A stretch of DNA of 19,658 bases. It comes from a virus. The stretch lies in UHGV virus genome UHGV-0171543. One strand, given 5' to 3'. Positions 4,508 to 8,425 of this stretch are shown one piece after another. The notes under the pieces were generated by a model. That model saw only the letters and a program-made list of their open reading frames with translations, ran no database searches and was not told the origin of the DNA. Both the position numbers and the translations under genes were made by a program. Numbering within the stretch: the stretch's first letter is position 1; every line of letters starts with the position of its first letter.

Positions 4508-5944
4508 TCAGAATCCTCCTTTCTTCTTGGACTGCGGTTCCTCGCGTTCACGTCGGCGCATTTCAGCAGACTGTTGGTCTGTGTCATAAATAGCGCCATT
4601 TGCCTGAATGCAATACACCGTGCCGGTATTGCCATGACGATTGAGACGAAGGATTAGTTCGGTTTCACCAGGTGGAACACTGTCATCAAAAGCGCCTTCA
4701 CGATGGATCCCAACCCAATAATCGCAATCCTGTTCAATCTGCCCTGTATCTCGTGAGTCACTTGGTAATGGGCGTTTATTGGTTCGGCTTTCCAGTGCGC
4801 GGTTAAGCTGTGTCAGAAGCACAACAACGCAATCAAGCTCTTTGGCAAGGTTCTTCAGTCCTTTGGTGATCATGCCGTAAGCAAGGTCGTTGCGATCGGC
4901 CTTCTCAGCGGTCATTAGTGTCAGGTAATCGACCAGAATCATGCCAACACATCCTTTTTCTCGCTTTATTCGACGGCTTTCGCTGACGATTTGAGCCAGA
5001 GATAATCCCGGCGTGTCGTCGATGTAAAGCATGTCGATTTCACTCAAGCGATTAGCTGTTTCGATTGCCCTGTTGAAGTCACCATCGTAATCACCCTGAT
5101 AGCCGTCATCAGCGTCATTTGTCGCCGGAAGGTAAAAAATATTCGGGTTAACACCTGACTTCTGTCCCACCAGTTTTTCCAGTATCTGGTCACCTGGCAT
5201 TTCAAGGCTGAACATCAGAGCGGGCTTTTTCTCATGCACTGCGCAGTTGATTGCCATCTGGCTGTATATCGTCGTTTTCCCCATCTTAGGGCGAGCGCCA
5301 ATGACAAACAGAGAGCCTTTCACCAGACCTTTCGGTGACAGCATCCTGTCCAGCGATGGGATCCCTGTGCTCATTCCTCGTTGTTCTCCTGACGGGTCAA
5401 ATCGCTTCTCAAGGTCGCTAACCCAGTCTTCCATGACCTCACCAAATGAGCGAAGGCCGCGACGCGATCCGGTTTTTGCATGGTCTGTCAGTTGCGTGAA
5501 AATCGCCTGAATAGCTTCGTACTTCTGCGTTGCAGTCATTCCGTTGCGGGAATAGAGCAATTCCGTCGCTTCAGTCATGCGGTTGATGGCGTAGCGTTCC
5601 ATTGCGGTTTCACGAACCTGCATTGCATAGGCAACGATGTTTGCTGCGCTTGGCGTGTTCTTTGCGATCTCAGCGATATAAGCAAAACCGCCAACAGACG
5701 CCGTTAACGATTTACGCTCCAGTTCATCGAAAAGCGTCAGGCCATCTACTGGCTTTTGCTCCCGGTGCATTCTGGTTATTTCTTCGAAAAGGATTTTGTG
5801 TGGTCGGCCGTAAAATGAATCAGGCTTCAGCATCGCCAGAACTTTCTGGACGCGCTCACTGCTGTCATCATCCAGAAGCAATCCACCAATCACCGCCTGC
5901 TCTGCCTCGATGCTATGGGGCGGCGCATAAAAATTATCGGTCAT
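4508..5944 (-). CDS. DnaB-family replicative helicase (lambdoid P-position helicase)
   Basis: About 478 aa from the ATG at 5944, which has an AGGGTG Shine-Dalgarno-like element upstream (the ORF track extends to a GTG at 5959). Walker A GARPKMGKT, DnaB-like N-terminal domain, Walker B-like ILVDYLTLM. Overlaps the O stop. Confidence 0.9.
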   Translation of the reverse strand: MTDNFYAPPHSIEAEQAVIGGLLLDDDSSERVQKVLAMLKPDSFYGRPHKILFEEITRMHREQKPVDGLTLFDELERKSLTASVGGFAYIAEIAKNTPSAANIVAYAMQVRETAMERYAINRMTEATELLYSRNGMTATQKYEAIQAIFTQLTDHAKTGSRRGLRSFGEVMEDWVSDLEKRFDPSGEQRGMSTGIPSLDRMLSPKGLVKGSLFVIGARPKMGKTTIYSQMAINCAVHEKKPALMFSLEMPGDQILEKLVGQKSGVNPNIFYLPATNDADDGYQGDYDGDFNRAIETANRLSEIDMLYIDDTPGLSLAQIVSESRRIKREKGCVGMILVDYLTLMTAEKADRNDLAYGMITKGLKNLAKELDCVVVLLTQLNRALESRTNKRPLPSDSRDTGQIEQDCDYWVGIHREGAFDDSVPPGETELILRLNRHGNTGTVYCIQANGAIYDTDQQSAEMRRREREEPQSKKKGGF

Positions 5945-6833
5945 CGTGTTCACCCTCACGAACTTTCAGGTAGGTATTGTCGTTAAGCAGGAAATCAAAT
6001 CCCTTTTTGTGCCAGACGGTTCCGCGTTGATGGTTTGGGCGTTCTTCGAACATCCATCGGCAATTTTCGCCTACGTAGCTCAAATAATTTCTCCAGTCCT
6101 GCATCGAGAACCCATGCCCGTCAAGCTGGCGGGTTATCACTCCGGCTTTGCGCCAGAACGTTCGGATCTGGTTTTTACGCTTGTCATTCAGTGCGCGGAT
6201 TCTTGGCGCTTCAGGAAGGATTTCGTGGTAAGCATCGACAACATCCTGACAGCTAACGGAAGGTTTTTTCTTGTCAGACTTTTTGTCTGCTGTGGCACTC
6301 TCTAATACGTCAGTATTAGAGATAATATTATTATATTCTTTATCTGTGGTAATTTGCTGGTAATCTGCTGGTACAGTATTGCTTACAGGCATTGGTATTG
6401 CTGGCTTTGAGGTGGTAATTTGCTGGTAATCTGCTGGTACAAAATTTGACTGATAATCGTCATATTTCTCTACCGAGAAAACTGAGAATTTACCGTGTGA
6501 AACCCAGTCAATCATGCCGAGTTTTTTGAACTTTCTAAGCAGGTACTGAACGCGATCTGGTTTGAGTCCTGTTTCAAACGCCAGAGAGTTTCTACCGCCA
6601 AGTAGCTTACCTCTGCCTACCAGAATTTCTCCTGCGTCAGTCATTACATACTCAGGCGTATGCTTTGCTTTGAGGATTAAGTGAACCCACAGATGTGCTG
6701 CTTCTGCGTCCTTGTAAAACGGCACATCCATAATTTTACGGTGCAGCAAGGCATACCCCTTACCGCTGCTTTGATGCGGTTGTTGTAGCCTTCTGGCCTC
6801 TCTGGCTTCGGCTAGATTAGATATGTTACTCAT
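5934..6833 (-). CDS. Replication initiator O-like protein (non-lambda allele) containing the origin iterons
   Basis: 299-aa ORF directly downstream of cII in the O position. The repeated peptide [10 protein letters not shown] is encoded by the DNA iterons. The N-terminal domain does not match lambda O as I recall it. Confidence 0.8.
6300..6441. repeat. Putative replication origin inside the O gene: iterons plus adjacent AT-rich segment
   Basis: GGTAATTTGCTGGTAATCTGCTGGTACA occurs twice (6348..6375 and 6414..6441), each made of two approx. 10-bp GCTGGTA units. A perfect 8-bp inverted repeat (TCTAATAC-GTCA-GTATTAGA, 6301..6320) and an AT-rich run (6321..6345) lie just beyond, downstream in the O reading direction. 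Confidence 0.65.
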
Positions 6834-6972
6834 GACCTTTCTCCTTCTGCATCAGCTTCACCTTTTCCAACTCAGCCCGGAATCGACCAGGCTGCTTGAA
6901 GCTGGACAGGAAGCGATCACGTAGTATGTGTTTGTGAATTTTGTCCTGGTAAGGACTGAGTTGTTTTGTCAT
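6826..6972 (-). CDS. Small hypothetical ORF between cII and O (48 aa, basic)
   Basis: Below the ORF-track length cutoff. Minus-strand ATG at 6972 preceded by AGGAG about 7 nt upstream. Its stop overlaps the O start (ATGAGTAA). Hand translation [48 protein letters not shown]. Confidence 0.35.
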
Positions 6973-7004
6973 AATGACTCCTGTGGATTGATCCAGTAAT
7001 TCCC

Positions 7005-7304
7005 TCAGAATTCCATCTGGATTTGTTCAGAACGCTCGGTCTTGCACACCGGGCGTTTTTTATTGGTGAGTCCATCAAGCGCATACTTAAAAGCCCTGCT
7101 AATCGGACTGATGTCTGATGCCATTCCAAAAGCACACAGAACCGAAGCAATAAATCTCCAGTCCGTTCTGCTTATCTTCGATTCATGACAGCCAATCATC
7201 TTTGCCAGACCGCGCTGGGTAAGCGTGGACAGGTTGATGAGTAAATCTGTTTCTGCGCGATCAACGTCGCGCTGTGATAGTTTGCTGTAACTTGTTTGTT
7301 CCAT
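7005..7304 (-). CDS. cII: cII-like transcriptional activator (mosaic: lambda-type C-terminus, different N-terminal domain)
   Basis: 99-aa ORF at the cII position. The C-terminal [17 protein letters not shown] matches the lambda cII C-terminus as recalled. The N-terminal 75 aa carries a different HTH-like segment ([18 protein letters not shown]). Confidence 0.7.
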
Positions 7305-7368
7305 TTCTTACTATTTCCATAGGTAAATAATCACTAATACTCATCTTTCGATGAGTGCTTAATTAGTT

Positions 7369-7402
7369 ACCGCGTTGTCGGCGGTGCAGATTGATAAAGA
7401 GC
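7369..7402 (-). promoter_or_regulatory. nutR-like site: boxA plus P22-type boxB hairpin
   Basis: In the rightward transcript, CGCTCTTTATCA (boxA-like) is followed by ACCGCCGACAACGCGGT (hairpin with GACAA loop). A second hairpin ACTCATC-GAAA-GATGAGT lies at 7338..7355. Confidence 0.6.
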
Positions 7403-7410
7403 GGTGTTAC

Positions 7411-7620
<210 letters not shown>

Positions 7621-7637
7621 TTAGTACATGCAATCAT

Positions 7638-7705
7638 TATCACCGCTAGAGGTAAAATAGTCAACACGCACGGTGTTAGATATTTATCCCTTGCGGTGAT
7701 AGATT
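7638..7705. promoter_or_regulatory. oR1-oR2-oR3 operators with divergent pR and pRM promoters
   Basis: 17-bp sites TATCACCGCTAGAGGTA (7638..7654), CAACACGCACGGTGTTA (7662..7678), TATCCCTTGCGGTGATA (7685..7701). pR -35/-10 on the minus strand (AGTCAA 7659..7664, ATTATC 7637..7642). pRM -35 TAGATA and -10 TAGATT on the + strand. cI starts at the first ATG, as for the leaderless lambda cI mRNA. Confidence 0.9.
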
Positions 7706-7708
7706 TAA

Positions 7709-8425
<717 letters not shown>

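What the first reader, a model, noticed from the sequence alone, without database searches (positions are those of the whole stretch)
6300..6441. Origin iterons arranged as two pairs inside the O-like gene, with a flanking palindrome
Seen in sequence: two exact 28-bp copies of GGTAATTTGCTGGTAATCTGCTGGTACA, each holding two approx. 10-bp GCTGGTA units, are separated by about 38 bp, with a weaker GGTATTGCTGG unit between them. A perfect 8-bp inverted repeat with a 4-bp spacer and an AT-rich run lie alongside. The iterons encode the repeated [10 protein letters not shown] peptide. Established knowledge: lambdoid origins lie within O and consist of iterons bound by the O N-terminal domain plus an AT-rich unwinding segment.
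Basis: partly seen in the sequence, partly recalled or inferred. Interest (0 to 1): 0.3.

Follow-up and report, generated by a model that had tools for sequence, protein, structure and literature searches.

The report
Known HK022-type phage replication origin
The repeats are the already-annotated replication origin found inside the initiator gene of HK022/HK620/Sf6/VT2-Sakai-type lambdoid phages: six 11-bp initiator-binding units, an AT-rich melting tract and a palindrome kept intact by compensatory mutations, so it is real and well built but ordinary.

Summary
An exact 30-bp repeat lies at 6346-6375 and 6412-6441, an AT-rich tract at 6323-6341 and a perfect 10+4+10 palindrome at 6299-6322. 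All sit in the minus-strand O-like gene (5934-6833), which is followed by a DnaB-type helicase gene.

The gene is 99% identical to O of HK620, HK022 and VT2-Sakai. Their GenBank records already mark these two 30-mers as "ori iteron 1/2" or rep_origin, so it is already known, although I found no direct replication test for this family.

Comparison of 84 distinct alleles adds detail:
- The origin is six 11-bp direct units in one register (3 + 33-bp spacer + 3), read in three codon frames.
- Units are 97.5% conserved where the spacer between them is 59%.
- Unit sequence follows the allele of the N-terminal winged-helix domain.
- Natural variants carry one to four clusters.
- The palindrome exists in 18 versions, all perfect, with compensatory changes at all 10 pairs.
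- The origin sits in the part of the gene that encodes a disordered linker.

The layout matches oriλ, but the iterons are direct, not dyad-symmetric, and no homology to λ O was detected. Interest is low.

The parts
5934..6833 (-). O-like replication initiator gene (299 aa). N-terminal winged-helix domain about residues 26-127, disordered linker 132-191, C-terminal domain 192-299.
   Evidence: ORF and translation. phrog_345 'replication initiation O-like', E 6e-87. 99% identical to HK620/HK022/VT2-Sakai O. AlphaFold2 model and Foldseek matches to winged-HTH proteins only.
6412..6441 (-). Iteron cluster 1, far from the AT tract: one copy of the exact 30-bp repeat. Units u1 6430-6440, u2 6419-6429, u3 (partial) 6408-6418.
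   Evidence: Annotated 'ori iteron 1' in VT2-Sakai.
6375..6407 (-). 33-bp spacer, exactly three unit lengths.
   Evidence: spacer 58.8% identical against 97.5% for the iterons. Column entropy 0.42-0.89 against 0.04-0.23.
6346..6375 (-). Iteron cluster 2, next to the AT tract: second copy of the exact 30-bp repeat. Units u7 6364-6374, u8 6353-6363, u9 (partial) 6342-6352.
   Evidence: Annotated 'ori iteron 2' in VT2-Sakai.
6323..6341 (.). AT-rich tract (18/19 A+T), the presumed DNA-unwinding element. It is also the mosaic junction with the Sf6-type allele.
6299..6322 (.). Perfect palindrome, 10-bp arms and 4-nt spacer (coding strand TCTCTAATAC TGAC GTATTAGAGA).
   Evidence: DNA hairpin -7.5 kcal/mol, z -4.6. 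18 sequence versions in relatives, 98.1% paired, 10/10 pairs with compensatory change, 0/500 shuffles. λ has a 12+4+12 palindrome at the same relative place.
4508..5959 (-). Phage DnaB-family replicative helicase gene, overlapping the end of O. Presumed partner of the O C-terminal domain.
   Evidence: Pfam DnaB/DnaB_C. TIGR03600 phage_DnaB, 581 bits.
7636..7664 (-). pR-like promoter. Transcription from it runs through cro, cII, orf48, O and the origin.
   Evidence: Promoter scan, 10/12 match. Gene order cro-cII-orf48-O-helicase and the HK620 annotation.

Best explanation
This is the vegetative (theta) replication origin of a lambdoid prophage that carries the HK022/HK620/Sf6/L/VT2-Sakai-type replication module.

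Proposed mechanism, step by step:
1. The N-terminal winged-helix domain of the O-like initiator binds the 11-bp direct units TACCAGCA(G/A)AT. The units form two clusters of three in a single 11-bp register, 66 bp apart, so successive units face roughly the same side of the helix (inferred binding).
2. The resulting nucleoprotein complex, helped by pR transcription passing through, melts the adjacent 19-bp AT-rich tract (inferred).
3. The C-terminal domain of the initiator brings in the phage's own DnaB-type helicase (inferred).
4. The 10+4+10 palindrome that bounds the AT tract is part of the origin and is selected as a dyad or hairpin. Its role is not known. It may stabilise or delimit the opened region, or mark the helicase or primer entry site (speculative).

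The whole origin lies in the gene segment that encodes a disordered interdomain linker. That leaves the DNA free to carry these signals.

Shown here: the sequence anatomy, its conservation, the covariation, the domain layout and the identity of the neighbouring genes. Inferred: binding, melting and helicase loading.
For: Identity and prior annotation:
- 99% identity to HK620, HK022 and VT2-Sakai O. The same 30-mers are annotated as rep_origin or ori iterons.
- Sf6 and phage L annotate the homologous repeats as putative origins.

Selection on the units at the DNA level:
- The 11-bp units are read in three different codon frames.
- In 80 of 84 distinct alleles, units 1-3 and 7-9 share one 11-bp register.
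- In 446 allele pairs with the same unit type but N-domains under 90% identical, the units are 97.5% identical while the spacer they enclose is 58.8% identical. Third codon positions are included.
- Both clusters change together from allele to allele: TACCAGCA, TGTCCAACG, TGTCCAGCC, GTGCCAACA, AATCCAA and others.

Specificity:
- Unit sequence correlates with the N-domain (Mantel r 0.80; partial r 0.80 given the C-domain). It does not correlate with the C-domain (partial r -0.28).
- No allele pair has different units and an N-domain above 80% identical. 74 pairs have different units with C-domains above 90% identical.

Protein:
- Two confident domains are joined by a linker with pLDDT below 50 at residues 132-191, which is the origin-coding part.
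- The structural matches are winged-HTH DNA binders.

Architecture:
- The order iterons, AT-rich tract (GC 0.20), palindrome with a 4-nt spacer is the same as in oriλ.

Palindrome:
- 18 versions, all perfect. 10 of 10 pairs show compensatory change, and 0 of 500 shuffles reach the observed values.

Portability:
- Erwinia phage Eho59 O joins this N-domain, the iterons (a 31-bp exact repeat at 66-bp offset) and the palindrome to a λ-O-type C-domain (70% identical to λ O residues 178-299). Its neighbour is a λ-P homologue.

Partner gene:
- A DnaB-family helicase gene lies immediately downstream.
Against: - I found no experiment for this family: no origin cloning, footprinting or replication mapping. 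The literature and records say 'putative' or 'likely'.
- The correlation between units and N-domain is confounded by physical linkage, because the units lie directly after the N-domain coding part.
- No sequence homology to λ O was detected, so the mechanism is carried over by analogy.
- Natural variants with one to four clusters show that the two-cluster layout is not strictly required.
- Structural matches for the N-domain are weak in E-value (0.013 or higher).
Confidence: 0.85

Rival explanations
1. The repeat is only a protein-level duplication of a 22-residue stretch in a flexible linker ([10 protein letters not shown]...), with no function as DNA.
For: The 66-bp period is in frame, and the peptide is repeated exactly. 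The segment encodes a disordered linker where duplications are tolerated. Copy number varies from one to four in nature.
Against: The 11-bp sub-period is not a multiple of 3, and the same DNA unit is read in three frames. The units, including third codon positions, are far more conserved than the spacer inside the same duplicated block: 97.5% against 58.8%. The encoded peptide differs completely between alleles while the 3+3 unit geometry is kept.
Confidence: 0.03
2. The palindrome is not an origin element. It is an RNA-level signal, for example an intrinsic terminator for transcription antisense to O, or a processing site in the pR transcript.
For: The consensus scan flags 6299-6322 as terminator-like on the + strand, followed by a T-rich AT tract. 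The phage L record annotates a 'terminator' on the opposite strand over the homologous palindrome.
Against: The stem has only 3 G-C pairs and the tail is TAATATTATT, not a T run. No antisense promoter was found in 5800-7800. There is no Rfam match. Of 255 paired cells only 1 is G-U, and no pair changes on one side only except the outermost, which is unusual for RNA helices. The palindrome keeps its place beside the AT tract even when the C-domain and partner are swapped for λ types. λ has one at the same place.
Confidence: 0.1
3. The units are O-binding sites whose main role is regulatory rather than initiation. Examples would be autoregulation or roadblock of pR transcription, copy control by handcuffing, or incompatibility. 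The true start site would lie elsewhere.
For: Iterons of plasmids and of λ also act in control and inhibition phenomena (PMC3349717; PMC5043065). Variable cluster number fits a dosage-type role.
Against: The units lie immediately next to the most AT-rich tract of the gene and a conserved palindrome, in the oriλ order. No other repeat family of this kind was found in the 451-bp stretch 6150-6600 that was scanned for repeats. The unit itself occurs nowhere else in the window apart from one 1-mismatch chance hit. Regulatory and origin roles are not mutually exclusive.
Confidence: 0.05

Closest known systems
Origin of the HK022 / HK620 / Sf6 / phage L / VT2-Sakai replication module (O-like initiator of phrog_345 plus DnaB-type helicase; called 'Eru3' in Stx phages)
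   Same: The O gene is 99% identical to HK620/HK022/VT2-Sakai O. The same two 30-mers are annotated as ori iterons or rep_origin. The neighbours are the same: orf48/DUF2740 upstream and a DnaB-type helicase downstream. Phage L and Sf6 carry the same 3+3 layout of 11-bp units with a different unit sequence.
   Different: Nothing essential; this is a member. The window allele has two clusters, whereas some close relatives have one, three or four.
oriλ (bacteriophage λ origin within gene O)
   Same: It lies inside the initiator gene. In the window gene that segment encodes the disordered linker between the two folded domains. The order along pR transcription is iterons, then AT-rich tract, then a palindrome with a 4-nt spacer. 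Recombination junctions between alleles fall at or next to the AT tract. A natural chimera links this N-domain and origin to the λ O C-domain.
   Different: λ has four 18-19-bp iterons, each a near-perfect inverted repeat bound by an O dimer (PMC5043065). Here there are six 11-bp direct units with no internal dyad. No sequence homology to λ O or Pfam Phage_rep_O was detected. The partner is a DnaB-type helicase rather than a λ P-type loader that captures host DnaB.
Iteron-type plasmid origins (direct, helically phased iterons bound by winged-helix Rep proteins)
   Same: Direct repeats are spaced at about one helical turn or multiples of it. The initiator has a winged-helix fold. An AT-rich tract lies on one side of the repeats (PMC5043065).
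   Different: The units are 11 bp rather than about 17-22 bp. The origin is embedded in the initiator's own coding sequence. There is no DnaA box with at most 1 mismatch anywhere between 4010 and 8416. No homology to plasmid Rep families was found.

Membership tests
HK022/HK620/VT2-Sakai-type O + DnaB-helicase replication module and its in-gene origin | Initiator protein of this family (phrog_345; near-identity to HK022/HK620 O) | tested here: met
   phrog_345 E 6.4e-87 over residues 2-299. 99.2% DNA identity to HK620 O and 98.7-99.3% protein identity to HK620, HK022 and VT2-Sakai O.
HK022/HK620/VT2-Sakai-type O + DnaB-helicase replication module and its in-gene origin | Two 30-bp repeats, 66 bp apart, at mid-gene, at the place annotated as ori iterons or rep_origin | tested here: met
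   The HK620 rep_origin maps to window 6346-6441. VT2-Sakai 'ori iteron 1/2' map to 6412-6441 and 6346-6375.
HK022/HK620/VT2-Sakai-type O + DnaB-helicase replication module and its in-gene origin | DnaB-family helicase gene directly downstream and overlapping; orf48 (DUF2740) directly upstream | tested here: met
   Pfam DnaB, DnaB_C and DUF2740. TIGR03600 at 581 bits, above its cut-off of 498.65.
HK022/HK620/VT2-Sakai-type O + DnaB-helicase replication module and its in-gene origin | Origin activity and initiator binding at the repeats | not testable with these tools
   No experiment was found for this family. Records and papers say 'putative' or 'likely'.
λ-type origin (oriλ) and λ O family | Origin inside the initiator gene, in the interdomain linker coding part | tested here: met
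   The linker at residues 132-191 (pLDDT below 50) is encoded by window about 6261-6440, which spans the units, the AT tract and the palindrome.
λ-type origin (oriλ) and λ O family | Order iterons, AT-rich tract, palindrome, in the direction of pR transcription | tested here: met
   Window. λ: iterons 39034-39118, then a 12+4+12 palindrome at L009 563-590.
λ-type origin (oriλ) and λ O family | Iterons are about 19-bp units with internal dyad symmetry (sites for O dimers) | tested here: not met
   No inverted repeat lies within 6342-6441. The units are 11-bp direct repeats. The λ iterons show the dyad in the same test (PMC5043065).
λ-type origin (oriλ) and λ O family | Initiator homologous to λ O (Pfam Phage_rep_O N-domain) | tested here: not met
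   No Phage_rep_O hit at E <= 0.01. hhalign of a 7-sequence profile against λ O gives probability 0.2. The profile is shallow, so very remote homology is not excluded.
λ-type origin (oriλ) and λ O family | Partner is a λ P-type helicase loader | tested here: not met
   The downstream gene is a DnaB-family helicase. A relative, Erwinia phage Eho59, does pair this N-domain and origin with a λ-type C-domain and a λ P homologue.
Iteron-type plasmid origins | Direct repeats in helical phase next to an AT-rich tract | tested here: met
   Core 6-mers are spaced 11, 11, 44, 11, 11 in most alleles. The AT tract is shown.
Iteron-type plasmid origins | Rep-family initiator and DnaA boxes in the origin | tested here: not met
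   No Rep family appears in Pfam, NCBIfam or PDB sequence searches. There is no DnaA box with at most 1 mismatch between 4010 and 8416. The fold is a generic winged HTH.

The most novel reading that the evidence does not exclude
The 10+4+10 palindrome beside the AT-rich tract may be a structure-selected working part of the origin. It could act as a hairpin or cruciform that fixes the edge of the opened region, or that marks where helicase or primase enters.

It has been kept perfect through at least 18 sequence versions by compensatory change. It travels with the N-domain-plus-iteron cassette even when the C-domain and helicase partner are swapped. It is mirrored at the same position in oriλ, whose O protein shows no detectable homology.

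If so, it would be a shared and so far functionally unassigned element of lambdoid origins. It would also be a candidate for the transient structured origin DNA that Lamassu-type defences sense (PMC12663957).
Probability: 0.4. Interest if true: 0.45.

Novelty: already known. Interest (0 to 1): 0.18.

Why it matters
For this window it settles the annotation. The origin of this prophage is at 6299-6441, inside the O-like gene, and it belongs to the HK022/VT2-Sakai ("Eru3") replication type. That type is also carried by the Stx2 phage of E. coli O157:H7 Sakai.

The comparative data give a ready experimental design for a family whose origin has only been inferred. There are several natural initiator/iteron specificity pairs, natural variants with one to four clusters, and a natural chimera with the λ O C-domain.

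The one point that goes a little beyond what I found written down is the strictly compensated palindrome. Its function is not known, either here or in λ.

Tried and rejected
- **Homology to λ O.** Pfam shows no Phage_rep_O hit. NCBIfam gives nothing for O. hhalign against λ O gives probability 0.2. A PDB sequence search gives no hits. 'O-like' therefore rests on position, PHROG membership and the Eho59 chimera.
- **P22 gp18 as the nearest experimentally studied relative.** This was rejected. The 'gp18' hits at 65% identity are phage L/ST64T-type alleles. According to PMC8022706, phage L gp18 is only 25% identical to P22 gp18, and P22 has four ~20-bp repeats.
- **DnaA boxes in or near the origin.** None with at most 1 mismatch lies between 4010 and 8416.
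- **Known RNA family over the palindrome or origin.** There is no Rfam match at E <= 1.
- **Literature searches for an experimental test of this origin type**. Only sequence-based statements were found. PMC94795 (the P22 genome paper) is not held.
- **Mantel correlation of unit type with the N-domain.** It is significant, but I do not count it as independent proof of binding because of physical linkage. The contrast between units and the enclosed spacer is the cleaner evidence.
- **First homologous-protein run.** It returned only near-identical sequences. A second run with a divergent family member was needed to build an alignment for structure prediction.

Full report
**What is in the sequence**

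The finding lies in a minus-strand ORF, 5934-6833, of 299 aa. Upstream on the same strand are:
- a pR-like promoter (7664-7636),
- cro (7411-7611),
- cII (7005-7304),
- a 48-aa DUF2740 gene (6826-6972).

cI lies on the opposite strand (7712-8425). Directly downstream, and overlapping the end of the ORF, is a DnaB-family helicase gene, 4508-5959. It matches Pfam DnaB and DnaB_C, and TIGR03600 'phage_DnaB' at 581 bits. This is the early-right operon of a lambdoid phage, read on the minus strand.

Inside the ORF, an exact 30-bp sequence occurs twice, 66 bp (22 codons) apart. On the + strand it reads GTGGTAATTTGCTGGTAATCTGCTGGTACA, at 6346-6375 and 6412-6441. Tandem Repeats Finder reports an 11-bp period within each copy.

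Read on the coding strand, each copy is GTACCAGCAGA TTACCAGCAAA TTACCAC.... That is two full units and a third partial one. The unit TACCAGCARAT with at most 1 mismatch occurs 5 times in the 19.7-kb window. Four are exact and all four are here. Chance expectation is 0.70, and 0 of 200 shuffles reach 5.

Downstream in the direction of translation comes a 19-bp tract that is 18/19 A+T (6341-6323). Windows of 30 nt reach the gene's GC minimum of 0.20 there.

Next is a perfect palindrome with 10-bp arms and a 4-nt spacer, 6322-6299: TCTCTAATAC TGAC GTATTAGAGA. As single-stranded DNA it folds at -7.5 kcal/mol, z = -4.6.

- 30 bp, not 28;
- arms of 10, not 8;
- three units per copy, not two.

**It is already annotated in public records**

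The ORF is 99.2% identical in DNA to gene O of phages HK620 and HK630. Its protein is 98.7-99.3% identical to O of HK620, HK022, mEp235 and VT2-Sakai.
- The HK620 record carries a two-part rep_origin that maps to window 6346-6441.
- The VT2-Sakai record marks 'ori iteron 1' and 'ori iteron 2', bound by 'O protein', on exactly the two 30-mers.
- The Sf6 record calls the homologous repeats 'putative; repeat region reminiscent of the phage lambda origin; similar to phage HK620'.
- In Stx phages this module has been named Eru3: Eru3A is the initiator and Eru3B the DnaB helicase. VT2-Sakai is a member (PMC8044961).

I found no paper that tests origin activity or initiator binding for this family. 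Seven literature searches returned only sequence-based statements.

**Comparative anatomy**

From annotated phages, one genome per species, and IMG/VR contigs, I collected 117 loci that encode relatives of the initiator. They gave 84 distinct origin segments.

In 80 of the 84, the layout is the same in a single 11-bp register: units 1-3, a spacer of exactly three unit lengths (33 bp), units 7-9, an AT-rich tract, then a palindrome. In most alleles the commonest core 6-mer recurs at spacings of 11, 11, 44, 11, 11.

The unit differs by allele:
- TACCAGCA in the window type;
- TGTCCAACG in L, Sf6 and Cronobacter;
- TGTCCAGCC and GTGCCAACA in Klebsiella and others;
- TTACCAACA;
- AATCCAAAG.

A CCA core is common to all, and both clusters of one allele always carry the same unit.

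Distant homologues in Pseudomonas and Vibrio phages (26-28% identity) also carry 11-bp direct repeats in the corresponding part of the gene.

**The units are selected as DNA**

An 11-bp period cannot come from a repeated peptide. The same unit is read in three frames: gTA-CCA-GCA-GAT / TAC-CAG-CAA-ATt / aTT-ACC-ACc.

I took the 446 allele pairs that share a unit type but whose N-terminal domains are less than 90% identical. In these pairs units 1, 2, 7 and 8 are 97.5% identical, while the 33-bp spacer enclosed between them is only 58.8% identical. Column entropy is 0.04-0.23 in the units against 0.42-0.89 in the spacer. In three of the four unit-type groups the contrast also holds when only third codon positions are counted. 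Because the spacer is flanked by units on both sides, linkage cannot explain this.

It is probably not functional.

**Specificity and modularity**

Unit sequence follows the N-terminal domain (Mantel r = 0.80; partial r = 0.80 controlling for the C-domain). It does not follow the C-terminal domain (partial r = -0.28).

No allele pair has different units together with N-domains above 80% identical. In contrast, 74 pairs have different units with C-domains above 90% identical. Since the units lie directly after the N-domain coding part, this is consistent with N-domain recognition but does not prove it.

The junction between the window allele and the Sf6 allele falls inside the AT tract. The sequences differ up to the last unit and are identical from AATAATAT... 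onward.

A natural chimera is informative. The O protein of Erwinia phage Eho59 has three relevant properties:
- Residues 6-178 are 47% identical to the window protein. This part includes a 31-bp exact repeat at a 66-bp offset and a palindrome, ATCTAATAC TAAC GTATTAGAT.
- Residues 193-316 are 70% identical to λ O residues 178-299.
- The neighbouring gene is a λ P homologue.

The N-domain, iterons, AT tract and palindrome therefore behave as one portable cassette. It can be joined either to a λ-P-binding C-domain or to the C-domain that pairs with a DnaB-type helicase. This is the best evidence here that the protein plays the role of O.

**Copy number**

Close relatives of the window allele exist with:
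- one cluster (L101),
- three clusters (L097, L098; 321-aa proteins P0002-P0027),
- four clusters (343-aa P0001).

They differ by whole 66-bp blocks. Unequal exchange between the exact repeats would produce this pattern.

**The palindrome**

Across the 84 origin segments there are 18 different palindromes. All have perfect arms of 9-10 bp and a 4-nt spacer T(A/G)A(C/A).

On 26 distinct rows:
- 98.1% of cells are paired, against 67.3% in shuffles and 31-53% when the partner is slid by 1-3 columns.
- All 10 pairs show changes on both sides (65 cells).
- The covariation score is 0.722 against 0.154, with 0 of 500 shuffles as high.
- Only one G-U cell occurs, and one-sided changes occur only at the outermost pair.

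The encoded peptide changes freely ([32 protein letters not shown]). The selection is therefore on the nucleic acid.

Strict Watson-Crick compensation fits a DNA hairpin or cruciform, or a dyad-symmetric protein site, better than an RNA helix.

λ has a 12+4+12 palindrome at the same relative position, just after its AT-rich tract.

A terminator reading was considered. The consensus scan flags the site on the + strand, and the phage L record annotates a terminator there. However, the stem has only 3 G-C pairs, the tail is not a T run, no antisense promoter was found, and Rfam has nothing.

**The protein**

An AlphaFold2 model built from a 36-sequence alignment has two confident domains: residues 26-127 (pLDDT 80-94) and 192-299 (pLDDT 76-92). 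They are joined by a linker with pLDDT below 50 at residues 132-191. That linker is encoded by the stretch that holds the units, the AT tract and the palindrome.

Foldseek against the PDB returns winged-helix-turn-helix DNA binders throughout the listed top 50: CadC/SmtB/CzrA, the DNA-binding domains of CRP and CodY, and TubR. E-values are weak (0.013 or higher) but the picture is consistent. PHROGs adds weaker similarity of the N-half to 'DnaD-like helicase loader' families.

No homology to λ O was detected:
- there is no Pfam Phage_rep_O hit;
- hhalign gives probability 0.2;
- no solved relative was found by sequence.

**Mechanism proposed**

By analogy with oriλ and with iteron plasmids (PMC5043065; PMC7466680), the likely sequence of events is:
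1. The winged-helix N-domain binds the 11-bp direct units on about one face of the helix.
2. The resulting complex, helped by pR transcription passing through, opens the AT tract.
3. The C-domain recruits the phage DnaB-type helicase.

There is no DnaA box with at most 1 mismatch between 4010 and 8416, so direct DnaA binding at the origin is not indicated. Binding, opening and loading are all inferred.

The palindrome's role is unknown. I suggest a structural role at the edge of the opened region.

**How it compares with what is known**

It is a member of the HK022/HK620/Sf6/L/VT2-Sakai origin type. It works like oriλ in layout. It fails two λ-defining tests: its iterons are not dyad-symmetric, and no homology to λ O was detected. 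It also uses a helicase partner rather than a λ P-type loader. In the direct, phased repeats it resembles plasmid iteron origins.

**Verdict**

The feature is real and correctly interpreted, and the sequence feature and its reading as an origin are already in public records. Interest is low.

The additions from this work are:
- the single 11-bp register (3 + 3 units, 66 = 6 x 11);
- the contrast between conserved units and diverged spacer;
- the copy-number variants;
- the Eho59 chimera;
- the strictly compensated palindrome.

The palindrome is the only item that might repay experiments.

Noticed in passing
L097, L098 (three clusters), L101 (one cluster); proteins P0001 (343 aa, four copies of [10 protein letters not shown]) and P0002-P0027 (321 aa, three copies): Close relatives of the window's O allele differ by whole 66-bp blocks, giving one to four iteron clusters. 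Unequal exchange between the exact 30-bp repeats would produce this.
   Followed up: partly
L010 (Erwinia phage vB_EhrS_59, MH443101) 686-1636: A natural chimeric O. Its N-domain, 11-bp iterons and palindrome are of the window's family (47% identity over residues 6-178). These are fused to a λ-O-type C-domain (70% identical to λ O 178-299), next to a λ P homologue.
   Followed up: yes
window 7029-7059 (+ strand): A strong terminator-like hairpin with a T run on the strand antisense to cII (7005-7304, minus). The position and orientation are those of the λ oop RNA terminator.
   Followed up: no
window 6826-6972 (- strand): A 48-aa DUF2740/orf48 gene overlaps the start of O. PHROGs (phrog_1913) and several RefSeq records label its homologues 'tail protein'. 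That looks like a propagated misannotation for a tiny early-operon gene.
   Followed up: no
L019 (Chryseobacterium sp. 18061, 799-kb contig) and L042 (Catenulispora yoronensis, 501-bp contig): Enterobacterial-type O genes (61% and 56% identity, with TGTCCAACGG-type iterons in L019) occur in assemblies labelled as a Bacteroidota and an Actinomycetota species. Contamination or mislabelling is likely.
   Followed up: no
L034 (Leclercia MAG) and L035 (Silvania hatchlandensis): These two alleles have ATTACC-type units spaced 12 bp apart, not 11, and a longer linker. They are the only departures from the 11-bp register apart from the copy-number variants.
   Followed up: no
window 5934-5959: The mechanical ORF list starts the helicase at GTG 5959. 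The HK620 annotation implies a start equivalent to window 5944, which overlaps the end of O by 11 nt. The true start was not examined.
   Followed up: no
L011 (Pseudomonas phage Orisa01) 383-1126 and L012 (Vibrio phage 1.228.O) 925-1671: Distant homologues of the initiator (26-28% identity), each next to a helicase gene, also carry 11-bp direct repeats in the mid-gene region (GAACCAGCAGT..., T(A/C)GCAAACGAA...). No perfect palindrome with arms of 8 bp or more was found in either.
   Followed up: partly
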